64,000 nt of DNA from Myxococcota bacterium (GTDB lineage: Bacteria; Myxococcota_A; UBA9042; PHBI01; JACKFB01), in contig JBNJGB010000031.1 in the NCBI GenBank assembly GCA_051747385.1, forward strand, positions 9,454-73,453. Reading direction: 5' to 3'. The position numbers and the translations under genes are program-made. Position 1 is the first letter of the stretch. Each line of letters opens with the position of its first letter. This document shows positions 3,891 to 55,292 of the stretch, one piece after another. The notes beneath the pieces are model-generated. The model did not search any database, had not been told where the DNA came from, and saw only the letters and a list, made by a program, of their open reading frames with translations.

Positions 3891-3922
3891 CCAGCCGGAT
3901 CGGCCGGTTCGAGCCCCCCGTT

Positions 3923-3952
3923 CGGGAACGGGAACGGGAACGGGAACGGGAA
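3923..3952. repeat. Hexanucleotide microsatellite (GGGAAC)5
   Basis: Five perfect tandem GGGAAC units in the convergent intergenic space, beginning 60 nt before the batA-like stop (units 3923-3952 plus a partial gggagg unit; stop at 3983); inverted partner at 12881-12940. Confidence 0.9.
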
Positions 3953-3982
3953 CGGGAGGCCGAGAGGGACCGGCGCCCCGGA

Positions 3983-12880: not shown

Positions 12881-12940
12881 TCCCACTCCCGTTCCCGTTC
12901 CCGCTCCCGTTCCCGTTCCCGCTTCCGTTCCCGTTCCCAA
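12881..12940. repeat. Hexanucleotide microsatellite (TCCCGT/TCCCGC)10, reverse complement of the GGGAAC motif
   Basis: Ten tandem hexamers in the divergent promoter region between the MoxR operon (start 12762) and the ECF sigma gene (13065). Confidence 0.9.
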
Positions 12941-13064
12941 ACGGCGCCGACGGCCCCGGTTGCCGCTACCCCCTGCGTGTGATGGGATACCGCCGGCCTC
13001 CCGCGGCGCGGGTTGAATACGCGGCGCCGTCGCGCGTCGGGACGAGTGACGTTGGAGAGACGTC

Positions 13065-17229: not shown

Positions 17230-17421
17230 GAGCCCGGAAACGCCGGCGGGGACGCCGCCGCAGGTGGATCGGGAAGTGACCGCCGGGGGACGGCGTTCCT
17301 ACTGCATCTTCCCCGCGTTCTCCGCCCCTTCGCGGCGTGGCGCCTTGGCGCGAGCCCTTTGGAACCGGGAAGATGGGCGTGATCGACAGGCGACGACGCA
17401 GGCGCCCCACTCCGTGGGGGA

Positions 17422-27087: not shown

Positions 27088-27345
27088 CGCCGGCGACACG
27101 GCTCACAGGTCGTCACATGTCGCAAGACGAAGGGCTCGCGCAAAGACGCGAAGACGCAAAGGAAGACGGCATGCTTCGGCCCCGTGTGCTCGCGGTTGGC
27201 CTGCCGGTGACCCGACGGTCTCGGCCAAACCTGTGTGCAAGCGGTTCGCTGGCCTTTGGGGCTTGGCGGCCTGGCGCGCGATTGTCCGCGCGACCGCAGC
27301 ACCCCGAGATGGGTAGGACCGTGAGGCGACACGGCTTCGACGGGT
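27088..27345 (+). repeat. R1 repeat element copy 1 (about 255 nt), directly after the dedA-family stop
   Basis: About 85% identical to the reverse complement of 52875..53152; core GGCTCGCGCAAAGACGCGAAGACGCAAAGG. Confidence 0.85.
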
Positions 27346-40668: not shown

Positions 40669-40862
40669 GTCGTCCAGCCTATCATTCCGGGCCGGGAGCG
40701 GGCGACGCGGTGAAACCGCCTGCCCTGCCCGATTCTTGGTCGACCGGGTGTCTGTGATAGCTTGCCGCCCGTGATCCCGGGGGAGGGAGCAGGCCACCCA
40801 CGGCCGGACGATGCGGCAGCAGGACCGCCGTCTCCGCCGGCGGAACCAGGAGGACAGCCCGA

Positions 40863-43187
40863 GTGAGCAGCCGCCGCCGCGCCCTGTTCGTCAACCCGCC
40901 GCTGTTCGTGGGGACGGACTTCATCGACTACCCGTACTTCGCGGACTACGGCCTCCTCGTGTCGGCGGCCTGGACCGCGCGCGCCGGGTGGGCGGTGGAC
41001 GTGGTGGACGCCTTCGCGCGGCCCGGCTCGGGCAAGCACCCCCACGGCGACCACTTCCTCCTGGGCGTCCCCAACGACGCCATGCTGGAGGCGATGCCCG
41101 AGGAACCGGTCGACGTGGTGGCCGTCGCGAGCACGCCGTTCCTCAAACCCCAGGACCCGCGGCCGGAGACCCGCGAGCTGATCGCGGCCCTCCGCGAGCG
41201 CTATCCCGACGCCGCTCTCATCCTGGCGGACTGCCACTTCGGCGGCATGCACACGGTCGAGGTGGACCTCGAGGACGTCCTGGCGGCCATGCCGGACCTC
41301 GACGCGCACCTCCGCTACGCCGGGGACGCCTGGTTCTCGGAGCCGGAGCGCCTCCTGGACCTGAAGGGCACGAAGCAGGCCGTGGACGCCGCCGCGCACC
41401 CCTGGCGGAGCTCCCACAGCCCGCCATTTCCGCTCCTCGACGCGCTGGACCGGGAGCACCACCGGCGCTTCCTGGCGTCCTGCTTCGCGGACGGCTCCTG
41501 GTCGAACCCCTTCGACGTCACGCCGGACACCCTGCCCTTCATGACCAGCGGCGGCTGCGTGCACCGCTGCATCTTCTGCACCTCCAACCCGGGCTGGCAG
41601 ACCGTGGGCCGCAAGCCGTACCGCGCCGTGCCCCTGGAGTGCATCGAGCAGTGGGCCTATCTCCTCGTGAAGGGCCTGGGCGCGCGGAAGCTGATGATCC
41701 TCGACGAGATCGCCAACCTGCGCCCCGACTTCGAGGAGGTCCTGGAGGTCTTGGAGAAGCTGGACCTCCGCTACGACTTCCCCAACGGCGTGCGGGCGGA
41801 CTACCTCGCCGACAGCGCCATCGAGCGGATGAAGGGCCGGGTGAACAGGCTGTCCGTGTCGGTCGAGAGCGGGGACGCGGCGGAGCTCTCGGGCCCCATC
41901 GCCAAGCGCCTGGACCCGAACGAGGTGGAGCGCGTCGCGCGGACGGCGCACCGGGTCGGCGTGCCGCTCATGGTCCACTACATCATCGGCTTCCCGTGGG
42001 AGACGCCGCGGCAGGTGCTCGACACGCTGGAGTTCGCCTGGCGGCTCCACGAGCAGTACGGCGCCGAGCCGGCGGTCCAGTACGCGACGCCGCTGCGGGG
42101 CACGCCGCTCCACGAGATGTGCCTGGAGCAGGGCCTCACCACGAAGCAGGGCGCGGACTCCACGGACCCGGCGCTGTTCCAGCACGAGCCCTCCTACGTC
42201 CCGCCGAACATCCCGCCCGGCTGGCTCGAGACGGCCAAGGGCGCGCTGGAGGCCAAGCTGAAGGCGGCGCGCGAGCGCAAGGTGATCATGAACATCACCT
42301 ACTCGTGCGACAACAACTGCGAGTTCTGCGCCACGGGCGACCGCGTGCGGAAGATCATCCCCTGGCCGCGGGTCGAGCGCATCCTGCGCGAGCACTGGGA
42401 CCAGGGCATCGGCCAGCTGGACATCGACGGCGGCGAGCCGACGCTGCACCCGAACCTCGTGGACGCCATCCGGCTGGCGACGGACCTGGGCTATCACCGC
42501 ATCAACATCACCAGCAACGGCCGGCGCCTCGCGGACCCCGAGCGCGCCCGGGAGCTGGTGCAGAGCGGCCTGACGAGCCTGCTCATCTCCATGCACGGCC
42601 ACACGCCGGAGCTGCACGACCGCATCGTGCGGAAGCGCGGCGCCTTCGATCAGACCGTCGCCGGCATCCGGAACGCCCTGGCGTACATGTCCGAGGACGT
42701 GGACTTCGGCGTGAACATCACCATCGTGCGGAACAACGTGGACCACCTGGAGGAGTTCACGCAGCTCGCCTGGGACCTGGGCGCGCGGAAGGTGAACTAC
42801 CAGATGCTCACGCCGTTCGGGAACGCCGAGACCCGCTACACGGACGAGGACATCGTCCCGCCCGAGCGCGAGGTGGCCGCCCGCCTCTGCGAGGTCATCG
42901 AGCGCTGGAGCGACCGGCTGCGCATCTTCGTCGTCAACGCGCAGCCCTGCCTCTTCCCGGGCTACGAGCGCTACGTCCTGCCGGACCTCCAGAAGCTGGG
43001 GCGCACGATGGTCTTCGTGTGGGACGAGGAGGTGAACCTCTTCGAGTACCTCGGCGCGCGCCGCGAGCGCGTGGAGATCTGCGAGTCCTGCCCCCACAGC
43101 ATCAACTGCCAGGGCTTCTTCGACTTCGAGTCGGACTACGAGCCGCCCCGCGAGGTCCGCGACTTCCTGGGAGGTGCCCGTGCCTGA
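40863..43187 (+). CDS. Bifunctional radical-SAM protein: cobalamin-binding class-B radical SAM domain fused to a SPASM-type radical SAM domain
   Basis: GTG start 8 nt after AGGAGGA; N-terminal B12-binding-like region (ALFVNPPLFVG...GLLVSAAW...VDVVD); CVHRCIFC (Cx3Cx2C); second core NITYSCDNNCEFCATGD...IDGGEPTLHPN...ITSNGRRL and C-terminal CESCPHSINC auxiliary-cluster cysteines. Confidence 0.8.
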   Translation: MSSRRRALFVNPPLFVGTDFIDYPYFADYGLLVSAAWTARAGWAVDVVDAFARPGSGKHPHGDHFLLGVPNDAMLEAMPEEPVDVVAVASTPFLKPQDPRPETRELIAALRERYPDAALILADCHFGGMHTVEVDLEDVLAAMPDLDAHLRYAGDAWFSEPERLLDLKGTKQAVDAAAHPWRSSHSPPFPLLDALDREHHRRFLASCFADGSWSNPFDVTPDTLPFMTSGGCVHRCIFCTSNPGWQTVGRKPYRAVPLECIEQWAYLLVKGLGARKLMILDEIANLRPDFEEVLEVLEKLDLRYDFPNGVRADYLADSAIERMKGRVNRLSVSVESGDAAELSGPIAKRLDPNEVERVARTAHRVGVPLMVHYIIGFPWETPRQVLDTLEFAWRLHEQYGAEPAVQYATPLRGTPLHEMCLEQGLTTKQGADSTDPALFQHEPSYVPPNIPPGWLETAKGALEAKLKAARERKVIMNITYSCDNNCEFCATGDRVRKIIPWPRVERILREHWDQGIGQLDIDGGEPTLHPNLVDAIRLATDLGYHRINITSNGRRLADPERARELVQSGLTSLLISMHGHTPELHDRIVRKRGAFDQTVAGIRNALAYMSEDVDFGVNITIVRNNVDHLEEFTQLAWDLGARKVNYQMLTPFGNAETRYTDEDIVPPEREVAARLCEVIERWSDRLRIFVVNAQPCLFPGYERYVLPDLQKLGRTMVFVWDEEVNLFEYLGARRERVEICESCPHSINCQGFFDFESDYEPPREVRDFLGGARA

Positions 43188-44106
43188 ACGCCCCGGGACC
43201 ATGATCGACCTGATCATGGGCTACGAGTGCAACGTGCGGTGCGACTACTGCTCCATCTTCGACGAGCTTCGCCCGAAGAACATGAGCACCGCCCAGATCC
43301 TGGCGGAGCTTCAGCGTGCCTGGGCCCAGGGCATCCACCGCGCGGCCTTCGGCGGCGGCGAGCCGACCATCCGGAAGGACTTCCTGCCGCTCGTCCGATG
43401 GTGCCGGGATCGGGGCTTCGACCACGTGAAGGTGGCCTCGAACGGGATGATGTACTCCTACGAGGACTACGCCCGAAAGGCCGTCGACGCCGGAGTCACG
43501 CAGTTCAACATCTCCGCCATGGGCCACACGGAGGCCCTGTACAACCGCATCATGGCCACGCCGAAGGCCCTCGGCCTGGTGCGGAAGGGCGTGGACAACC
43601 TCATCGCCCTGGGCCAGGAGCCCGCCCTGGACCTCATCGTCAAGGCGGACACCTGGCGCCGGATCCCCGACACCGTCGCCTGGTGGGCCGACCAGGGCGT
43701 GAAGACGTTCAGCCTCTGGCTCGTGTCCCTGACCGACCGGAACGCGCAGTTCCCCGAGTCCATGCCCCGGGTGAGCGAGATGCGCGAGGGCTTCACGGGC
43801 GCCTTCGACATCGCCCGCGAGCGGGGCCTGAAGGTCACCACGCGCCACGTCCCCCGCTGCATGCTCCGCGGCTACGAGGACCACGTCGAGGACGTCAGCA
43901 CCCAGGACGTCCTCATCGTCACGCCGGGCGAGCGCTTCCACATCACCGACTCGGTCATCAGCCCGAACGCCCTGACCGACAAGTGCGAGGGCTGCCGCTT
44001 CGCCGGCGACCCCTGCATCGGGATGCGCCGGGATTACCTGGAGCGCTACGGCGACGACGAGATCGAGCCCTATTTCGACGACACGGCCGGCGCCGCCACG
44101 GCATGA
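43174..44106 (+). CDS. Radical SAM protein with C-terminal twitch/SPASM-like cysteines
   Basis: GYECNVRCDYCS (Cx3Cx2C), FGGGEPTI, ASNG; C-terminal CEGCRFAGDPC; start at GTG 43174 or ATG 43201; overlaps the upstream stop. Confidence 0.8.
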   Translation: MPVPERPGTMIDLIMGYECNVRCDYCSIFDELRPKNMSTAQILAELQRAWAQGIHRAAFGGGEPTIRKDFLPLVRWCRDRGFDHVKVASNGMMYSYEDYARKAVDAGVTQFNISAMGHTEALYNRIMATPKALGLVRKGVDNLIALGQEPALDLIVKADTWRRIPDTVAWWADQGVKTFSLWLVSLTDRNAQFPESMPRVSEMREGFTGAFDIARERGLKVTTRHVPRCMLRGYEDHVEDVSTQDVLIVTPGERFHITDSVISPNALTDKCEGCRFAGDPCIGMRRDYLERYGDDEIEPYFDDTAGAATA

Positions 44107-46064
44107 GGGCGCTCGTCGACGTCGGCCACGGGTGCAACAACCGGTGCACCTTCTGCAGCGTGGCCCCCACCCGCGAGTCGGAGGCCTCCACGGAGGCCCT
44201 GGCCCGGAAGATCGACCGCGCGGCCGCTCTGGGCCACACCATGGTGGTCCTCACCGGCGGCGAGCCGACCATCCGCCGCGACCTCCCGCGCCTGGCGAAG
44301 CGCGTCGCGGCCCGCGGCATGGATCTGGGCCTCGTCACCAACGCCCGGATGCTGGCCTATCCGAAGCTGGCCGATCTCCTCGCGGACCGCCGCCTCACCT
44401 GGGTCCACGCCTCCGTCCACGGCGGCACGCCCGAGGTCCACGACGCCATCGTCGGCGACGCGGCCTTCGAGCAGACCCTCGCGGGCGTCCGCACCTGCCT
44501 CGCCCGCGGCGTCGCCGTCCACCTCCACTGCGTCGTGACGCGCGCCAACCTCCACCACCTCCGCGGCGTGGTCGACCTGCTGTCGGACCTCCCCGGCGGC
44601 ACCCTGGCTTTCGCCCCGGTGGAGCCGGTGGGCGACGCCGCCCGCGACGACTCGCAGGTCCCCTCCCCCGAGGAGGCCGCCCGAGCCATCGCCGACGCCA
44701 TCCGCCACGGCGACTCGCGAGAGCACCGATCGGGCGTGCGGACCGCGGGTCTCCGAGGGATTTCCGAGTGGATCGGCCAGGCGCGCAGCGCCGGTGCTGC
44801 GTCCCGAGCCATGCCATCAGGCATGGCGCAGCGGTCGCGGCAGGCCGAGGCGCCGGAAATCGCCGGTAGCCCAACGGGAGCACGGTCGTTCGGTGCTCCA
44901 GGCCTCTCCGGCCGCGTGGCGCACCAGGACGTGCCCCTGTGCCTGCTGCCGGGCCTGGAGGACCGCTGGACCGACCCCCGCGCCCGGGGGTTCACGCGCC
45001 GCAGCCGCGTCGCGGACGACGACCTCCTCCCCCTCGACCGGGGCGGCCGGGTGCAGCCCGAGCCATGCACCGACTGCGCCCTGCGCGGCCGCTGCCCGGG
45101 CCTCCACGAGGCCACGCTGGAGACCTTCGGCGCGGGCATGCTGACGCCGAAGCTGGCGCACCGCTCCAACTCCTACAACTTCGTCCCCGGCGGCTCGGCC
45201 ACCTGGGAGGCCGGGGCGCCCTGCCCGCTCCTGGACCGCGGCCCGCACGTGCTCGACCGCACGCGCGACGTGTTCCTCCGACAGGGCGAGACGATGACGC
45301 GCTACGAGACGGCCACCCGCGACTTCGCCGAGGCCGAGCTTCGCGCCACCAAGCACGTCCACGGCCAGGTCTACGTGGACATCACGGACAAGACGGCCCC
45401 GGACGACTTCGCCGCGGACCTGCGCAAGCTGGTGCGCGTCCCGGAGTGCGCGCCCTGCCCGGCCCGCGACGCCTGCCCCAACTGCTACGAGGCCCTGGAC
45501 GAGGACGTCTTCACCCGCGACGACGCCCTCCTCCGGGACCTCATCGCCGGCCTGGAGGGCGACGTCCTCGACGTCGGCTGCGGCGACGGCCGCTACGGCG
45601 ACGTCCTGGGCCCCCTGGTCGAGTCGGGCCGCATCCGCTACCGCGGCCTCGACCCGCACGCCCCGACCGTCGAATCCCTCCGGGAGCGCTGGCCCTGGGC
45701 CACCCTCGAGGTCGGCCGCGCCGAGGACCTGGACCTGCCGCCCGAGTCCCTCGACCACGCCTTGGTGCTCCGCTCCTGGAACCACCTGGAGCGCCCCCGC
45801 GACGTCCTCACGGTCCTCACGAAGGCCCTCCGCCCCGGCGGCACCCTCCTCGTCGCCGACAACGTCGCCTTCGGCCTGCTCCGCAGCCCCACCCAGGCCA
45901 GCCGCGCCGAGACGGGCCCCTCCGAGTTGGAGCACTTCCGCAACCACAGCGCCACCCAGGCCCGAGCCCTCCTCGAAGCCCTCCCCCTGACCGTCGAGGC
46001 CTTCCACGAGGTCGGCCCCCGCACCAGCAACCAGTGGGTGCTTCACGCGCGGCGGACGGGTTGA
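44103..46064 (+). CDS. Radical SAM (SPASM-type) domain fused to a class I SAM-dependent methyltransferase domain
   Basis: ATGA overlap with the upstream gene; GHGCNNRCTFCS, LTGGEPTI, VTNARM; CTDCALRGRCPG and CAPCPARDACPNC cysteine clusters; C-terminal VLDVGCGDGRYG (MTase motif I) and LLVADN (motif II-like). Confidence 0.8.
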   Translation: MRALVDVGHGCNNRCTFCSVAPTRESEASTEALARKIDRAAALGHTMVVLTGGEPTIRRDLPRLAKRVAARGMDLGLVTNARMLAYPKLADLLADRRLTWVHASVHGGTPEVHDAIVGDAAFEQTLAGVRTCLARGVAVHLHCVVTRANLHHLRGVVDLLSDLPGGTLAFAPVEPVGDAARDDSQVPSPEEAARAIADAIRHGDSREHRSGVRTAGLRGISEWIGQARSAGAASRAMPSGMAQRSRQAEAPEIAGSPTGARSFGAPGLSGRVAHQDVPLCLLPGLEDRWTDPRARGFTRRSRVADDDLLPLDRGGRVQPEPCTDCALRGRCPGLHEATLETFGAGMLTPKLAHRSNSYNFVPGGSATWEAGAPCPLLDRGPHVLDRTRDVFLRQGETMTRYETATRDFAEAELRATKHVHGQVYVDITDKTAPDDFAADLRKLVRVPECAPCPARDACPNCYEALDEDVFTRDDALLRDLIAGLEGDVLDVGCGDGRYGDVLGPLVESGRIRYRGLDPHAPTVESLRERWPWATLEVGRAEDLDLPPESLDHALVLRSWNHLERPRDVLTVLTKALRPGGTLLVADNVAFGLLRSPTQASRAETGPSELEHFRNHSATQARALLEALPLTVEAFHEVGPRTSNQWVLHARRTG

Positions 46065-50509: not shown

Positions 50510-51901
50510 ATGGCGACGAAGAAGAAGAGCGGCACCACGAAGAAGGCCGCGGGCGGCACGACGAAGCGGAAGAAGCCCGCCGCGAAGGGCAAGGCGAAGG
50601 CCGCGGAGGCGACGAAGCCCTCCCGGCGCGCCGTGATCGTGGCGGGCGTGCGGACGCCGTTCGTCCGCGCCTTCCGCGAGTTCATGAAGCTGGACACCAT
50701 CGACCTGGGCGTGGCCGCGACCCGCGCGCTCCTCGAGCAGACGGAGCTTCCCCGGGACGAGGTGGACGCCATGGTCTGGGGCGGCGTCATCCTGCCCGGC
50801 ACGACGCCGAACGTGGGCCGGGAGATCGTGCTCGACCTGCGCCTGCCGCCGAGCGTGGAGGCCCGCACGGTGACACGGGCCTGCGCCTCCGGGCTCCAGG
50901 CCATCACGGACGCCGTGGAGAGCATCGAGCGCGGACACGCCGACGTGGTGATCGCGGGCGGGTCCGACTCGACCTCCAACGCGGAGCTGACCCTGCCCCA
51001 GAAGCTGGTCCACGCCCTGGCCCCCCTGGCCTTCGGCAAGCCCAAGCCGGCGGACTACCTCGCCGTGGCCTCGCAGCTCATGCCCATCACGGACCTGCTC
51101 CCGAAGCCTCCGCGGATCGCCGAGCGCACCACCGGCGAGCTGATGGGGGAGTCGGCCGAGAAGATGGCCCGGCGCAACGGCGTCACCCGCGAGAGCCAGG
51201 ATCGCTTCGCGGCCACGTCCCACGCCCGGGCGGCCGCGGCCATCGCCTCCGGCCGCCTCACGCGCGAGGTGGCCCCCGTGCGGACGCCCGCCGGCGACGT
51301 CGTGGCGTCCGACACCCTCGTCCGCGGGGACACCAGCCTGGAGAAGCTCGCGCGGCTCCGGCCGGCCTTCGCGAAGGACGGCACGCTGACGGCCGGGAAC
51401 TCCAGCCCGCTGACCGACGGGGCCGCGGCCGTGCTCCTCATGAGCGAGGACAAGGCGAAGGCCCTCGGCTACGAGCCCCTGGCCGCGTTCCGGAGCTGGT
51501 CCTACGTGGGCGTCGACCCGGCGGATCAGCTCCTGATGGGCCCGGCGCTGGCCATGCCCCGGGCGCTGGAGCGCGCCGGCATGGACCTGGAGGACGTGGA
51601 CGTCGTGGACATGCACGAGGCGTTCGCGGCGCAGGTGCTCTCCGTGCTCCAGATGCTCGGGAGCGACGGCTTCGCGCGGGAGCGGCTCGGTCGGCGCCGC
51701 GCCGTGGGCACGATCGCCACCAGCCGGCTCAACCTGCACGGCGGCTCGGTGGCCCTGGGGCACCCGTTCGGGGCCACGGGCGCGCGCATCGTCACGACCA
51801 TGGCGAACGAGCTCCGCCTGTCGGATCGCGAGACGGCGCTCATCGGGATCTGCGCCGCCGGCGGGCTCGGGGCCGGGGCGGTGCTGGAGCGCGTGGGCTG
51901 A
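50510..51901 (+). CDS. Acetyl-CoA C-acyltransferase (thiolase, FadA2-like) with unusual Lys/Ala/Thr-rich N-terminal 40-aa extension
   Basis: GGGAGGGGA SD; thiolase motifs (VIVAGVRTPF, catalytic Cys in RACASGLQAI, NLHGGSVALGHPFGATGARI, CAAGGLG). Confidence 0.88.
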   Translation: MATKKKSGTTKKAAGGTTKRKKPAAKGKAKAAEATKPSRRAVIVAGVRTPFVRAFREFMKLDTIDLGVAATRALLEQTELPRDEVDAMVWGGVILPGTTPNVGREIVLDLRLPPSVEARTVTRACASGLQAITDAVESIERGHADVVIAGGSDSTSNAELTLPQKLVHALAPLAFGKPKPADYLAVASQLMPITDLLPKPPRIAERTTGELMGESAEKMARRNGVTRESQDRFAATSHARAAAAIASGRLTREVAPVRTPAGDVVASDTLVRGDTSLEKLARLRPAFAKDGTLTAGNSSPLTDGAAAVLLMSEDKAKALGYEPLAAFRSWSYVGVDPADQLLMGPALAMPRALERAGMDLEDVDVVDMHEAFAAQVLSVLQMLGSDGFARERLGRRRAVGTIATSRLNLHGGSVALGHPFGATGARIVTTMANELRLSDRETALIGICAAGGLGAGAVLERVG

Positions 51902-51907
51902 TCCGGC

Positions 51908-52052
51908 AGGGCAACCGCAAGGTCGGAAAAGCGAGGGTCGCGCGGCGGTACGGCGCCCGGCGCCGGATTGCATCCGCTCGCAAACGATGGATTTTGCGGG
52001 TCTGAGAGCGGGCAAGGGCAAGGGAGGGCGGTCGACTTTGCGACCGCCCTGG
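51908..52052 (+). repeat. R2 repeat element copy A (about 145 nt): two GC hairpins flanking a (GGGCAA)n microsatellite
   Basis: About 90% identical to the reverse complement of 54221..54385; palindrome CGGCGCCCGGCGCCG and hairpin GGGCGGTCG-ACTTTG-CGACCGCCC. Confidence 0.85.
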
Positions 52053-52148
52053 CTGATCCGGTCTTCGGCCTTGCGTTCGGGGCCGGACCGGTTGTAAACG
52101 ACACGGCCTCGAATCATTCGAGGGCATCGGCGGATCGGAGAGGAATCC

Positions 52149-52451
52149 ATGGCGGTTCAGAAGAAGGCGAAGCTCGCACACGAGAAGAAGGCCGGCGGCG
52201 CCGAAGAGGGCTTCAAGGGCCAGTTCAACTTCAGGTCGGTGGTGGAGCTCGTGGAGTTCTCCAGCGGCGAGAAGGCCGCGATCGTCGACCTCGACGGCAA
52301 CGGGACCCTGGGCATCGTCGACCGCCACTACGTGTCGACCGACCCGAAGACCGGTGAGCACCGGCCCTCGCCCATGGCCTGCCCGGCCGTGTACGACGAG
52401 ACCGCCCGGCAGCTCGCGATCGAGCGCCACAAGAGCTACACGGCGGGCTGA
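52149..52451 (+). CDS. Hypothetical protein (100 aa) with Lys-rich N-terminus
   Basis: GGAGAGGAA SD 6 nt before the ATG; no family recognised. Confidence 0.45.
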   Translation: MAVQKKAKLAHEKKAGGAEEGFKGQFNFRSVVELVEFSSGEKAAIVDLDGNGTLGIVDRHYVSTDPKTGEHRPSPMACPAVYDETARQLAIERHKSYTAG

Positions 52452-52456
52452 GCCCG

Positions 52457-52861
52457 GTGGGCACCCTGGTCCACCGGACCCACGACGACGGCAAGGTCCG
52501 GATGGACCTGGCCTTCGGCGACGACCACCGGCTGGTCGTGCGCTTCGAGGGCCGCGGGACGATGCCCGGCACCTACGCGTTCGTGGAGGGCCTGCAGGAG
52601 GTCTTCGAGGCCGCCGGCCCCGACGGGCGCGTCGAGGGCATGGTCGACCTGTCGAAGCTCCGCGGGGCGCCCCTGCGCGGGCAGATCGTGACGGCGAAGG
52701 GCATCCTCCCCTATCGGAAGCAGATCGGGAAGGTGGCCATCGTCGGCGCCGGCAAGGCGGAGCGAAAGTTCGCGACGGCCGCGCTCAAGATCGTGCGCAT
52801 CGACACGGTCCGCTACTGCGACGACGAGGCCGAGGCCCGCGACTGGCTCGGCTGGGGGTAG
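52457..52861 (+). CDS. STAS/SpoIIAA-like domain protein (PF11964-like)
   Basis: GTG start 6 nt after the previous stop; C-terminal pattern VRYCDDEAEARDWL typical of SpoIIAA-like DUF proteins. Confidence 0.45.
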   Translation: MGTLVHRTHDDGKVRMDLAFGDDHRLVVRFEGRGTMPGTYAFVEGLQEVFEAAGPDGRVEGMVDLSKLRGAPLRGQIVTAKGILPYRKQIGKVAIVGAGKAERKFATAALKIVRIDTVRYCDDEAEARDWLGWG

Positions 52862-52874
52862 GACCGGCGTCCTC

Positions 52875-53152
52875 GCCTCACAGCCATCCGATGACCGCCG
52901 GCGACGGCTCACAGTCCTACACATCTCGGGGTGCCGCAGCCTCGGCGAGAATCGCGCGCCAAGGCGCCAAGACGCAAAGGCCAGCGAACCGCTTGCACAC
53001 AGGTTCGGCTGCGACTCTCGGGCCACCGGCAGGCCCACAGCGAGCATACCGGACCGAATCATGCCGTTTTCCTTTGCGTCTTCGCGTCTTTGCGCGAGCC
53101 CTTCGTGTTGCGACGTGTGACGAACTGTGAACCGGCGACGGCCGTCCTACTC
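52875..53152 (-). repeat. R1 repeat element copy 2 (inverted relative to copy 1), abutting the DAGK stop codon
   Basis: See R1 copy 1; in both copies the element begins within 10 nt of the stop codon of the gene it follows on its own strand. Confidence 0.85.
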
Positions 53153-54163
53153 CGAGCCCACGATGATCCGGACCCGCGGGCCGGTCCGCACGATCAGGGG
53201 CGGCCGGGCCTCCAGCAGGTCCCCGTCGACCATGTGGGGGAACACGTCCGCCTCCGGCTCGATGATCACCTCGCGGGGCGTGCGATCGAAGCCGGCCCGG
53301 GGTCGCAGGCCCCTGCCCGCGTAGAGCCGGCCGAGGTCCCGCGCCACGGCGCCGGCCGTCCCGGTGAGGCCGACCAGGTGGAAGCGGTCCAGGTCCCGCC
53401 GGCACCAGGCGAAGGGCTTGAAGCCGAGGCCGAGCTCCGGCGCGGTGCCGGCGCCGACGCCCAGGTAGTCCGCGGTGGGCATCCGCTCCCCGTCCACGGT
53501 GAGGGTGGCGACGACCCGCTCGCTCATGCGGCGGATGAGGCGGCCGCGGACCAGGATGCTGCCGAGTGTCGCGGACAGGGTGGTCACGGCGGTCACGGGC
53601 GTCGGATAGGGGTCGCCGCGGCGGTAATACTCGGCCAGGAAGCCGTGCAGGACCCCGAACCCGAAGAGGAACCCCAGGCGGCCGCCGGCGTCCATGGTGG
53701 CGACCTCGGTCGTGCGCAGGCGCTCGCCCCGACGTAGCCGGGCGACGAGGGCGCGCAGGAGGCCCTCCGGCTTCCCCCGCGGCGCGCCCACGCCGTTGGC
53801 GACCGTGTTCATGGTGCCGCCACGCAGGAGCGCGAGGAGCGGCAGGGGCGCGTCGCCGTAGACCTCCCGGAAGGCCGTCAGGACCATGGAGTTGGTGCCG
53901 TCGCCGCCGCTCACCGCGAGGACGTCGAGGCCCTTTCGGCGGAAGTCCTCGGCCGCGCGCCGGAGGCTGTCCGGGTCGGCGCAGCGGAAGACCTCGCCCC
54001 GGTCGCCGACGATCCACTCGAGCCGGTCGATGGCCTCGCCGCGGCCCCGGTTCCGCCCGGACATGGGGTTCAGGATCACCCCGACGCTCGACGCCTCCTC
54101 GATGGGACGGCGAGGGGCGGGGCCGGGCTCCGAGAGCCTGCTCTTGGCGGTGTGCGGGGCCAT
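53147..54163 (-). CDS. Diacylglycerol-kinase catalytic-domain lipid kinase (YegS/BmrU/sphingosine-kinase-like)
   Basis: ATG at 54163; NPMSG, DRGEVFRCADPDSLRRAAEDFRRKGLDVLAVSGGDGT, GTMNTVANGVG motifs. Confidence 0.8.
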   Translation of the reverse strand: MAPHTAKSRLSEPGPAPRRPIEEASSVGVILNPMSGRNRGRGEAIDRLEWIVGDRGEVFRCADPDSLRRAAEDFRRKGLDVLAVSGGDGTNSMVLTAFREVYGDAPLPLLALLRGGTMNTVANGVGAPRGKPEGLLRALVARLRRGERLRTTEVATMDAGGRLGFLFGFGVLHGFLAEYYRRGDPYPTPVTAVTTLSATLGSILVRGRLIRRMSERVVATLTVDGERMPTADYLGVGAGTAPELGLGFKPFAWCRRDLDRFHLVGLTGTAGAVARDLGRLYAGRGLRPRAGFDRTPREVIIEPEADVFPHMVDGDLLEARPPLIVRTGPRVRIIVGSE

Positions 54164-54220
54164 GGACACCGGTCGTATACCACAGCGCGTCCGCAGGTCG
54201 GAGGACGCCGTGGACCGCGC

Positions 54221-54385
54221 CCAGGGCGGTCGCAAAGTCGACCGCCCTCCCTTGCCTTTGCCCTTGCCCGTGCCCTTGCCTGCTCTCAGACGCGCAGAAC
54301 CCATCGTTTCCGAGCGGGTGCAATCCGGCGCTGGGCGCCGTACCGCCGCACGGCCCTCACCTCTCCGACTTTGCGATTGCCCTGG
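54221..54385 (-). repeat. R2 repeat element copy B (inverted), with expanded (CTTGCC-like)5 microsatellite, directly upstream of the DAGK start
   Basis: See R2 copy A. Confidence 0.85.
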
Positions 54386-54518
54386 GACCGCGCGCGGCTT
54401 CGAGGTCCCGGCAAGAGTCCCGTCCCTTCCGGTGTCCCGCCCCTCCGCCGAGGATGAATAGTCGGGGGACCCCGTCGTCTCCCTGGCGTCTCCCACCGCA
54501 CGGATGGAGGACCCGCTC

Positions 54519-55292
54519 ATGCCCACCCCTACCCGAACGCTCACCACCGCCCTGGCCGCCGTGCTGGTCGCGTCGCTCTCCGCCGCGGCGCTCGCCCGCG
54601 TCACGGCCGTGGAGCCCGACGACGGCGTGGAGCGGGCCTACCGCTACGAGCTTCGGGCGCTGGGCAACGCCGCCGGCGAGGCGGTCCTGACCATCGGTCC
54701 GCGCAAGCGGGTCGCCGGCAAGTACCTCCGGGCCGTGCGCCTCGAGGGGCGGACCCGCGGGTTCGCCGCCAAGGTCTTCGAGGCCGTGGCCGACGGCACC
54801 ACATGGCTGGACGACGCCTGGCTGCCCGTGGCCGCCGGCTGGAGGACCCGCACCGACACCGGGAAGAGCCGCGTCAAGGCGACCTATCCGGGCAACCGCA
54901 CCCGGGGCGAGTACCGGAAGAACGGTGAGTTGAAGCGCCGCATCGACGAGGCGCACGACGTGCGGCCCCTGGACATCGTCAGCGCGTTCGCCTGGCTGCT
55001 CCGGACCGACCTCGAGGCCGACGCCTCCTGGGATCGCCCCCTGTTCGACGGCCGGAAGATCTACCGCTTCCAGGCGAAGGTCGGCGACCCGAAGGAGATC
55101 GCCGTGCCCCTCGGCGTGCGCAAGGCGTGGCCGGTGCACGTGAAGGTCTCGCGCGAGGACTTCTCGCGTCGGCTGACCTACTGGGTGGGCGTCGACGACC
55201 GCGTCCCCTACAAGCTCGTCTTCCACTACGGCCTGCTGGGCGAGGTGGAGGCGCGCCTCACATCCAAGCGCGAGCGCGAGCCGGACGCATAG
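54519..55292 (+). CDS. Secreted DUF3108-like protein
   Basis: GGAGGAC SD 8 nt upstream of the ATG; signal peptide; YRYELRALGNAAGEAVL pattern suggestive of DUF3108. Confidence 0.45.
   Translation: MPTPTRTLTTALAAVLVASLSAAALARVTAVEPDDGVERAYRYELRALGNAAGEAVLTIGPRKRVAGKYLRAVRLEGRTRGFAAKVFEAVADGTTWLDDAWLPVAAGWRTRTDTGKSRVKATYPGNRTRGEYRKNGELKRRIDEAHDVRPLDIVSAFAWLLRTDLEADASWDRPLFDGRKIYRFQAKVGDPKEIAVPLGVRKAWPVHVKVSREDFSRRLTYWVGVDDRVPYKLVFHYGLLGEVEARLTSKREREPDA

What the first reader, a model, noticed from the sequence alone, without database searches (positions are those of the whole stretch)
51908..54385. 2.4-kb three-gene cassette bounded by inverted 145-nt repeats (R2) and internally carrying an R1 element
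R2 copy A (51908-52052, just after the thiolase stop) and R2 copy B (54221-54385, reverse complement, just upstream of the DAGK start) are about 90% identical and form terminal inverted repeats around a hypothetical 100-aa gene, a STAS-like gene, an R1 element and the DAGK-family gene. Each R2 has a perfect palindrome CGGCGCC-C-GGCGCCG, a 9-bp-stem hairpin GGGCGGTCG/CGACCGCCC and a G-rich hexanucleotide microsatellite whose copy number differs between copies (2-3 vs 5 units). TIR-bounded cassettes without a transposase resemble MITE-mobilised or invertase-targeted segments. Alternatively R2 is a promoter/5'-UTR element, since in its own orientation it lies immediately 5' of a gene in both copies (orf100 and DAGK).
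Basis: seen in the sequence. Interest (0 to 1): 0.6.

Follow-up and report, generated by a model that had tools for sequence, protein, structure and literature searches.

The report
Two small transposon relics flanking ordinary genes
The two inverted 145-165-nt repeats are separate insertions of a miniature non-coding transposon with ISAs1-family ends, sitting in the spacers of an ancestral gene row of a Myxococcota genome. The 2.4-kb segment between them is not a mobile or invertible cassette, so the finding is ordinary.

Summary
R2 copy A (51907-52052, +) and copy B (54221-54385, -) are about 90% identical apart from an 18-nt difference in a (GGGCAA)n run.

The cassette reading fails:
- Each R2 copy has its own 19-20-nt terminal inverted repeats, CAGGGC...CGCAAAGTCG.
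- Each copy has its own 9-10-bp target-site duplication: GCTGATCCGG for A and GGACCGCGC for B.
- The same termini flank ISAs1-family transposase genes in three unrelated genomes. They match published ISAs1 ends (CAGGG, 10-bp duplication).
- The same termini also bound other transposase-less short elements, including a multicopy one in a Myxococcales MAG.

R2 is therefore an ISAs1-type MITE that inserted twice independently.

The nearest relatives (80% thiolase identity) keep the same order and orientation, thiolase - orf9x - DAGK (reverse) ... DUF3108 - UvrD, and contain no R2. A conserved promoter-like block for orf100 lies outside R2A, downstream of it.

R1 is a second MITE-like element of 222 nt with 11-bp duplications in both copies.

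The genome-wide copy number and the partner transposase could not be checked, because only this window of the source MAG was readable.

Verdict: new member of a known kind, low interest.

The parts
50510..51901 (+). Thiolase (acetyl-CoA C-acyltransferase) gene. Its stop codon TGA (51899-51901) lies inside the R2A target-site duplication.
   Evidence: Pfam Thiolase_N/C. 100% identical to P0001, 'MAG: Myxococcota bacterium'.
51897..51906 (.). Left target-site duplication of R2A, GCTGATCCGG (9 bp, CTGATCCGG, if the element is taken to end in ...CCCTGG).
   Evidence: Read from the sequence. Direct repeat D5. Exact-match scan.
51907..52052 (+). R2 copy A, a 145-146-nt MITE. 5' inverted end 51907-51925 CAGGGCAACCGCAAGGTCG. 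3' inverted end 52033-52051 CGACTTTGCGACCGCCCTG.
   Evidence: Folds with the two ends paired.
52010..52028 (+). (GGGCAA)2-GGGAGGG G-rich run inside R2A. It matches a G-quadruplex motif and is the length-variable part of R2.
52026..52049 (+). Hairpin GGGCGGTCG-ACTTTG-CGACCGCCC. It is formed by the 3' inverted end plus a short inverted copy of its own tip.
   Evidence: (D3).
52052..52061 (.). Right target-site duplication of R2A, GCTGATCCGG.
52070..52099 (+). Promoter-like block cTTGCGTtcgg...N...TGTAAAC upstream of orf100. It is conserved in the R2-free relatives and lies outside R2A.
   Evidence: Three-way alignment after removing R2A. Its function as a promoter is inferred. The strict sigma-70 scan found nothing.
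52149..52451 (+). orf100, a conserved hypothetical gene.
   Evidence: No Pfam or NCBIfam family. Orthologues 65-67% identical at the same position in L107, L108 and L111.
52457..52861 (+). SpoIIAA-like/STAS gene. It is present here and absent at this position in L107, L108 and L111.
   Evidence: Pfam PF11964. No tblastn hit in the relatives' loci.
52898..52908 (.). Left 11-bp target-site duplication of R1 copy 1, CCGGCGACGGC.
52909..53130 (+). R1 copy 1, a 222-nt MITE-like element with ends TCACAGTCCTAC.../...GACGAACTGTGA and a long internal hairpin (52955-52980 / 53071-53096).
   Evidence: I3; I1.
53132..53142 (.). Right 11-bp target-site duplication of R1 copy 1, CCGGCGACGGC. One extra A at 53131 separates it from the element.
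53147..54163 (-). DAGK-family lipid kinase gene.
   Evidence: Pfam DAGK_cat. Orthologues 51% identical, same position and strand, in L107, L108 and L111.
54212..54220 (.). Target-site duplication of R2B, GGACCGCGC. This copy lies next to the element's 3' end on the DAGK side.
54221..54385 (-). R2 copy B. With family-style ends CAGGG...CCCTG it is 54222-54384 (163 nt). It carries about 5 imperfect GGGCAA units.
54385..54393 (.). Second copy of the R2B target-site duplication, GGACCGCGC. The boundary with the element is ambiguous by 1 nt. Read as 10 bp it matches at 9 of 10 positions.
54504..55292 (+). DUF3108 gene, divergent from DAGK. It is the syntenic right-hand anchor.
   Evidence: Pfam. 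Orthologues in L107 and L111.
27092..27335 (-). R1 copy 2 (27103-27324) with perfect 11-bp target-site duplications GCCGTGTCGCC (27092-27102 and 27325-27335, read on the - strand). It lies between two + strand genes.

Best explanation
R2 is a miniature inverted-repeat transposable element (MITE), a 145-165-nt non-coding derivative that carries the terminal inverted repeats of an ISAs1-family insertion sequence.

**Inferred mechanism.** An ISAs1-family DDE transposase encoded elsewhere bound the 19-20-nt ends (CAGGGC-nnn-CGCAAAGTCG). It integrated the element with a staggered cut 9-10 bp apart, which left the flanking duplications.

**What happened here.** Integration happened twice, independently, into two intergenic spacers of an ancestral Myxococcota gene row:
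- once 5 nt beyond the thiolase stop codon;
- once in the DAGK/DUF3108 divergent spacer.

The inverted orientation of the two copies and the genes between them are incidental.

**Shown:** element anatomy, duplications, end similarity to ISAs1 elements, synteny without R2 in relatives.

**Inferred:** mobilisation in trans by an ISAs1 transposase of the same genome, and multicopy status genome-wide.

R1 is a second, unrelated MITE-like element (222 nt, 11-bp duplications) inserted between the STAS and DAGK stop codons. Its parent family is unknown.
For: 1. **Each R2 has its own inverted ends.** The four termini are the only matches to the end motif in 64 kb, against 0.01 expected. The ends pair in the folds.
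2. **Each R2 has its own direct flank duplication.** These are GCTGATCCGG for A and GGACCGCGC for B. Two random 9-mers of this window match with P = 2.6e-5.
3. **The same end sequence bounds ISAs1-family elements elsewhere.**
   - L018:2152-3347 (1196 bp) holds a 384-aa ISAs1-family transposase (NCBIfam NF033564, 331 bits, cut-off 70; Pfam DDE_Tnp_1_assoc + DDE_Tnp_1) and has a 9-bp duplication.
   - L040:917-2153 is a frameshifted ISAs1 element with a 10-bp duplication.
   - L002 has an ISAs1 transposase next to the end motif.
4. **The literature agrees.** ISAs1 inverted repeats are 14-22 bp, start with CAGGG and give a 10-bp direct repeat (PMC11946415). ISArsp11 has IRL CAGGGCTGATGCAAAGTCG, IRR CAGGGCTAATGCAAAGTCG and a 10-bp direct repeat (PMC6305408, Table 3).
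5. **Transposase-less elements of 155-390 bp share these ends.** Their interiors are unrelated and they have 9-10-bp duplications. They occur in Deinococcus, Planctomycetota and delta/Myxococcota MAGs. One has at least 3 copies in Myxococcales MAG TH-Jun18-32, two of them at contig ends, and its 3' end is identical to R2's over 19-22 nt.
6. **Relatives keep the gene row without R2.** L107, L108 and L111 keep thiolase(+)-orf9x(+)-DAGK(-)...DUF3108(+)-UvrD(-) with no R2 or R1.
7. **The conserved promoter-like block upstream of orf100 lies outside R2A**.
8. **R2 matches no protein or RNA family.** Both copies are intergenic and no Rfam family matches.
Against: - Only two R2 copies are known, both in this window.
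- No further copy turned up in a 22-mer scan of JGI metagenome contigs, among predicted proteins searched with six-frame R2/R1 peptides, or in plasmids.
- No ISAs1 transposase is present in the 64-kb window. No full-length ISAs1 element from a Myxococcota genome was recovered. The partner transposase is therefore inferred.
- The R2B duplication is 9 bp with a 1-nt boundary ambiguity, or 9 of 10.
- The nearest relatives are distant (80% thiolase identity). The 'empty sites' are shown by gene order and a conserved spacer block, not by a base-for-base empty-site alignment.
Confidence: 0.85

Rival explanations
1. The two inverted R2 copies act as the ends of a composite, transposase-less transposon that brought orf100, STAS and DAGK into this locus as one cassette.
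For: Two inverted copies of one element flank three genes. In principle a transposase could use the two outermost ends. The STAS gene is absent from the relatives' loci.
Against: Each R2 has its own intact duplication. The outer flanks (GCTGATCCGG and GGACCGCGC) differ, so the unit was not inserted as a whole. orf100 and DAGK are at the same place and strand in R2-free relatives.
Confidence: 0.03
2. The segment is an invertible switch. Recombination between the inverted R2 copies, either homologous or by an invertase, flips orf100-STAS-DAGK relative to flanking promoters.
For: Inverted repeats of 146-165 nt at 90% identity, with a 43-nt stretch at 98%, could support occasional homologous recombination. 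IS-bounded inversions are documented in other bacteria, with reciprocal duplications as their mark (PMC5756416).
Against: The duplications are not reciprocal; each copy keeps its own pair. The assembled orientation equals the ancestral one in relatives. No recombinase was found among the cassette genes or the neighbours scanned. The repeats are complete MITEs, not short invertase sites.
Confidence: 0.05
3. R2 is, or has become, a cis-regulatory element for the gene downstream of its 3' end: a promoter, 5'-UTR structure, terminator or G-quadruplex/repeat-length switch.
For: In both copies the G-rich, length-variable 3' end points toward the next gene start, 97 nt from orf100 and 58 nt from DAGK. 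The run forms a G4 motif in copy A. One inner hairpin shows a double compensatory change between the copies (columns 68/86). MITEs inserted in promoter regions often alter expression (general knowledge).
Against: With two copies, a shared orientation has a 50% chance. R2B lies between divergent genes and R2A between co-directional ones. Orthologous genes lack R2. A conserved promoter-like block lies outside R2A. The scans found no sigma-70-like promoter or terminator in R2 and no Rfam family. R2A does not fold much better than shuffled sequence (z = -1.35).
Confidence: 0.1
4. R2 is a REP/BIME-type palindromic element spread by a RAYT (IS200/IS605-like) transposase, not a DDE-type MITE.
For: It is GC-rich, intergenic and hairpin-forming.
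Against: REP elements are much shorter and create no target duplications. R2 has 19-20-nt inverted ends shared with ISAs1 DDE elements and 9-10-bp duplications.
Confidence: 0.01

Closest known systems
ISAs1-family insertion sequences (for example ISAs1, ISArsp11, and the L018 element of the Deinococcus radiomollis plasmid NZ_CP129908.1)
   Same: The terminal inverted repeats have the same length and sequence pattern, CAGGGC-nnn(n)-GCAAAGTCG. The target duplication is 9-10 bp (PMC6305408, PMC11946415).
   Different: R2 is 145-165 nt and encodes no transposase, whereas these elements are 1.2-1.6 kb. Its interior is unrelated to the full-length elements recovered. It carries a hexanucleotide microsatellite.
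Bacterial MITEs in general (for example the MaeMITEs of Microcystis, PMC2779907, and the roughly 186-nt element of Myxococcales MAG TH-Jun18-32, L072:1332-1517)
   Same: Small, non-coding, with inverted ends and target duplications, located in intergenic spacers. The TH-Jun18-32 element shares R2's end sequence, has a 10-bp duplication and also carries a G-rich run next to one end.
   Different: The interiors are unrelated. R2's copy number is unknown, whereas classical MITE families are documented at tens to hundreds of copies.
Composite transposons and IS-bounded inversions (for example the ISAs18-bounded 27-kb inversion in Aeromonas, PMC5756416)
   Same: Two inverted copies of one mobile element bracket host genes.
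   Different: There is no shared outer duplication and no reciprocal duplications. The gene order equals the ancestral order.

Membership tests
MITE (non-autonomous DDE-type element) | Small size (under about 600 bp) and no transposase gene | tested here: met
   145-165 nt. Both copies lie in intergenic spacers and no gene is predicted inside them; several reading frames are stop-free across the short element, but a six-frame peptide search found no homologue.
MITE (non-autonomous DDE-type element) | Terminal inverted repeats | tested here: met
   The 19-20-nt ends pair at 16-17 of 19 positions. The four termini are the only matches in the window.
MITE (non-autonomous DDE-type element) | Target-site duplication at each copy | tested here: met
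   A: 10/10 GCTGATCCGG. B: 9/9 GGACCGCGC. P is about 2.6e-5 per 9-mer pair.
MITE (non-autonomous DDE-type element) | Multiple dispersed copies in the genome | tested here: inconclusive
   Two copies 2.2 kb apart in the window. The rest of the source MAG was not readable. Searches elsewhere found none.
MITE (non-autonomous DDE-type element) | Ends shared with an autonomous IS in the same genome | not testable with these tools
   No ISAs1 transposase in the 64-kb window. The source genome is not retrievable.
ISAs1-family-derived element | Inverted repeats of 14-22 bp beginning CAGGG | tested here: met
   CAGGGCAACCGCAAGGTCG / CAGGGCGGTCGCAAAGTCG, compared with ISArsp11 CAGGGCTGATGCAAAGTCG (PMC6305408, PMC11946415).
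ISAs1-family-derived element | The same ends flank an ISAs1-family transposase somewhere | tested here: met
   L018 (NF033564, 331 bits), L040 and L002.
ISAs1-family-derived element | Direct repeats of 8-10 bp | tested here: met
   9-10 bp in R2A, R2B and nine other elements with these ends.
Composite transposon | One target duplication flanking the whole unit | tested here: not met
   The outer flanks differ. Each R2 has its own pair.
Composite transposon | Cargo absent from the orthologous site in relatives | tested here: not met
   orf100 and DAGK are present in the same order and strand in L107, L108 and L111. Only STAS is extra.
Invertible DNA switch | Adjacent site-specific recombinase | tested here: not met
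   None among the cassette genes or the ten neighbouring or other window genes scanned. The whole window was not exhaustively annotated.
Invertible DNA switch | Both orientations observed | not testable with these tools
   No reads available. The assembly and the relatives show one orientation.
Cis-regulatory RNA or 5'-UTR element | Conserved upstream of orthologous genes, or a match to a known RNA family | tested here: not met
   Absent upstream of the orf9x and DAGK orthologues. No Rfam hit at gathering threshold or at E<=1.

The most novel reading that the evidence does not exclude
R2 has been co-opted. Its length-variable G-rich (GGGCAA)n / G-quadruplex-prone 3' end, which points at orf100 and at DAGK, would act as a repeat-length-dependent (phase-variable) modulator of two lipid-related genes. 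Alternatively the inverted pair supports occasional flipping of the 2.2-kb segment. Neither is excluded, because no expression or read-level data were available.
Probability: 0.06. Interest if true: 0.45.

Novelty: new member of a known kind. Interest (0 to 1): 0.15.

Why it matters
It matters little beyond annotation. The result adds an ISAs1-type MITE, and a second MITE-like element (R1) of unknown parentage, to the repeat inventory of an uncultured Myxococcota lineage.

It also shows that ISAs1-type ends bound transposase-less short elements in several phyla: Deinococcota, Planctomycetota and Myxococcota. That is useful for repeat masking, for explaining contig breaks in MAGs, and for IS curators.

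It removes a false lead. The thiolase-orf100-STAS-DAGK segment should not be treated as a mobile or invertible cassette.

Tried and rejected
1. **Genome-collection scan** with the degenerate end motif CAGGGCRRYCGCAARGTCG. No full R2 or R1 copy was among them. It still yielded the paired-end elements and the ISAs1 transposases that identified the family.
2. **Metagenome scan** with the R2-specific 22-mer GGCGGTCGACTTTGCGACCGCC. The single hit is an unrelated terminator-like hairpin.
3. **Exact-protein look-ups** of window genes to reach the source contig. Nothing was on record, although the thiolase is 100% identical to an NCBI MAG protein.
4. **Protein search** with a concatenation of the open conceptual translations of R2 (five frames) and R1 (three frames), aimed at spurious ORFs called across other copies. 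No hits.
5. **blastn against plasmids**. R2 gave only (GGCAAG)n microsatellite matches and R1 gave none.
6. **Rfam** at gathering threshold and at E<=1. Nothing relevant.
7. **Sigma-70 promoter and terminator scan** of 51.8-54.6 kb. No promoter, and one terminator-like site inside orf100 at chance level.
8. **R1 parent family.** The ends TCAC...GTGA with an 11-bp duplication did not match any element in the fetched loci. I could not assign a family.
9. **More distant relatives** L110 and L112 are not syntenic downstream of the thiolase, so they are uninformative for the empty-site question.
Full report
**Observation**

The region was read directly and scanned for repeats. R2 copy A (51907-52052, + strand) and copy B (54221-54385, - strand) align over their whole length. 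There are 14 mismatches over 146 aligned bases, about 90% identity, and one 18-nt indel that falls entirely in a GGGCAA hexanucleotide run. Copy A has 2 units and copy B about 5 imperfect units. The last 43 nt are 98% identical.

The 9-bp-stem hairpin GGGCGGTCG/CGACCGCCC is in both copies. The 'perfect palindrome' is perfect only in copy A.

Pfam confirms the gene content:
- thiolase, 50510-51901
- a 100-aa ORF with no family, 52149-52451
- a SpoIIAA-like/STAS protein, 52457-52861
- a DAGK_cat protein on the minus strand, 53147-54163
- a divergent DUF3108 gene, 54504-55292

R1 (52909-53130) has a second, inverted copy at 27103-27324 that is 87% identical.

Each R2 is a complete element in its own right.

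*Inverted ends.* The 5' end CAGGGCAAYCGCAARGTCG is the inverted complement of the 3' end CGACTTTGCGACCGCCCTG. A search for this end with up to 3 mismatches finds exactly the four termini of the two copies in 64 kb, against 0.01 expected.

*Direct duplications.* Each copy is flanked by its own direct duplication.
- R2A has GCTGATCCGG at 51897-51906 and 52052-61. The left copy contains the thiolase stop codon.
- R2B has GGACCGCGC at 54212-20 and 54385-93.

Two random 9-mers of this window are identical with probability 2.6e-5.

The duplications are not reciprocal between the copies, and the outer flanks of the pair differ. The pair was therefore not inserted as one unit. No inversion by recombination between the copies is recorded in the assembly; reciprocal duplications are the mark of such inversions (PMC5756416).

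**Family**

Re-analysis of the 106 loci still showed many paired inverted ends.

Two pairs are about 1.2 kb apart:
- L018:2152-3347, on a Deinococcus radiomollis plasmid, holds a 384-aa ORF that is an ISAs1-family transposase. NCBIfam NF033564 scores 331 bits against a cut-off of 70, and Pfam finds DDE_Tnp_1_assoc plus DDE_Tnp_1. It has a 9-bp duplication.
- L040:917-2153, from a Phycisphaerae MAG, is a frameshifted ISAs1 element with a 10-bp duplication.

L002, from a Chloroflexota MAG, has an ISAs1 transposase next to the motif.

The literature agrees. ISAs1 inverted repeats are 14-22 bp, start with CAGGG and give a 10-bp direct repeat (PMC11946415). ISArsp11 has IRL CAGGGCTGATGCAAAGTCG, IRR CAGGGCTAATGCAAAGTCG and a 10-bp repeat (PMC6305408 Table 3).

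Seven further pairs are 155-390 bp apart. They have unrelated interiors, no transposase and 9-10-bp duplications. They occur in Deinococcus, Planctomycetota, Phycisphaerae and delta/Myxococcota MAGs. One of these is present at least three times in Myxococcales MAG TH-Jun18-32, twice at contig ends. Its end is identical to R2's 3' end over 19-22 nt, and it also has a G-rich run beside one end.

R2 is thus an ISAs1-type MITE. The window itself has no ISAs1 transposase, as expected for a non-autonomous element.

**Is the segment a cassette?**

The thiolase is 100% identical to a protein of an NCBI 'Myxococcota bacterium' MAG. The next best hit is only 80% identical.

That relative, represented by two assemblies (L107, L108), and a JGI metagenome contig (L111) show the following order:

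MaoC - SDR - thiolase(+) - orf97/98(+) - DAGK(-) - one or two large genes(-) - DUF3108(+) - UvrD(-)

tblastn confirms orthology: orf100 65-67%, DAGK 51%, DUF3108 45%. The window has the SDR and UvrD at the matching places. R2 and R1 are absent from these loci, and so is the STAS gene. The genes between the R2 copies are therefore ancestral residents in their ancestral orientation.

After removing R2A and one duplication copy in silico, the thiolase-orf100 spacer aligns with the relatives' spacers. A conserved block, cTTGCkTyCGG...TGTAAwC, appears in all three and lies at 52070-52099, downstream of R2A. Its promoter role is inferred. What it shows is that the conserved upstream signal of orf100 is not R2.

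**Regulatory and RNA readings**

- Rfam gives nothing at gathering threshold for the whole window. For 51.8-54.6 kb it gives only one chance-level sRNA match inside DAGK.
- The consensus promoter and terminator scan finds nothing in R2.
- R2A folds little better than shuffled sequence (z = -1.35). R2B folds better (z = -3.1). Both are dominated by pairing of the two ends.
- Between the two copies there is one double compensatory change in a small inner hairpin. With two sequences this is anecdotal.
- In both copies the G-rich 3' end faces the next gene, but with two copies that has a 50% chance.

A secondary regulatory effect of the insertions cannot be excluded and is listed as a rival.

**R1**

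Both copies are 222 nt, with imperfect inverted ends TCACRGTCCTAC.../...GACGAMCTGTGA, a long internal hairpin (z = -3.2) and 11-bp flank duplications:
- GCCGTGTCGCC, perfect, at 27092-27102 and 27325-35
- CCGGCGACGGC at 52898-908 and 53132-42, with one extra A

Two random 11-mers match with P = 2.9e-6. R1 is a second MITE-like family. No parent IS could be assigned.

**Limits**

Only the 64-kb window of the source genome was readable. Exact-protein look-ups found no record. No additional R2 or R1 copy was found in JGI metagenome contigs with a 22-mer, among predicted proteins with six-frame peptides, or in plasmids. Genome-wide copy number and the partner transposase therefore remain inferred.

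**Verdict**

The repeats are real and non-random. They are two independent insertions of an ISAs1-type MITE into spacers of a conserved gene row. The '2.4-kb cassette' is a coincidence of two nearby insertions. This is a new member of a known kind, of low interest.

Noticed in passing
window 27092-27335 and 52898-53142: R1 is a separate 222-nt MITE-like family. It has ends TCAC...GTGA, a long internal hairpin and 11-bp target duplications in both copies. Its parent IS family is not identified.
   Followed up: partly
window 3918-3958 (+) and 12889-12944 (-): (GGGAAC)n hexanucleotide microsatellites fill two other intergenic spacers. Like the (GGGCAA)n run in R2 they match G-quadruplex motifs. 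No R2-like ends were seen around them by eye.
   Followed up: partly
window 17290-17375: A short stretch in a convergent intergenic spacer weakly resembles parts of R1 (33 nt at 82%, blastn). It may be a decayed R1-related fragment.
   Followed up: partly
L112:1340-1960 (Myxococcota MAG GCA_036149055.1): An intergenic array of roughly 200-nt repeats contains the motif TTTGCGTCTTTGCGTCTTTGCGTGAG and its complement. This is nearly the same as the inner hairpin arms of R1, which hints at a wider Myxococcota repeat family.
   Followed up: partly
L072:1332-1517; L058:1-148; L061:1-176 (Myxococcales MAG TH-Jun18-32): A roughly 186-nt MITE has ends identical to R2's 3' end, a 10-bp duplication (TGGCCTCATG) and a G-rich GGGGGTGAGGGGGTGAGGG run beside one end. 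Two copies sit at contig starts, which suggests the element breaks the assembly.
   Followed up: partly
L100:1-579 (Deltaproteobacteria MAG TH-Jun18-130): A 579-bp stretch is bounded by the same ISAs1-type ends and contains a 114-aa ORF with no NCBIfam match. It could be a larger non-autonomous derivative carrying a passenger ORF. The left flank is cut by the contig end.
   Followed up: partly
window 52457-52861 and 54164-54503, compared with L107:12965-17068 and L111:9801-13909: Compared with the relatives, this lineage has an extra STAS gene directly after orf100. It lacks the one or two large genes (faint Cu-binding MopE-like hits) that lie between DAGK and DUF3108 in the relatives. The R2B spacer may therefore be a deletion junction.
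   Followed up: partly
window 40761-45000: A row of radical SAM paralogues: two stop-to-stop ORFs (40761-43187, which contains two Radical_SAM stretches, and 43036-44106) match Pfam Radical_SAM. Direct repeats about 900-925 nt apart (42395, 43320 and 44246) indicate three copies of a shared GGCGGCGAGCCGAC stretch, the third lying beyond the ORFs scanned.
   Followed up: partly
L082:4634-4655 (Thermoleophilia MAG): An exact 22-nt match to the R2 3' end lies inside what reads as coding sequence (…VDFATAL…). It has no partner end and appears to be a chance match. This shows that single hits to the end motif are not evidence of an element.
   Followed up: partly
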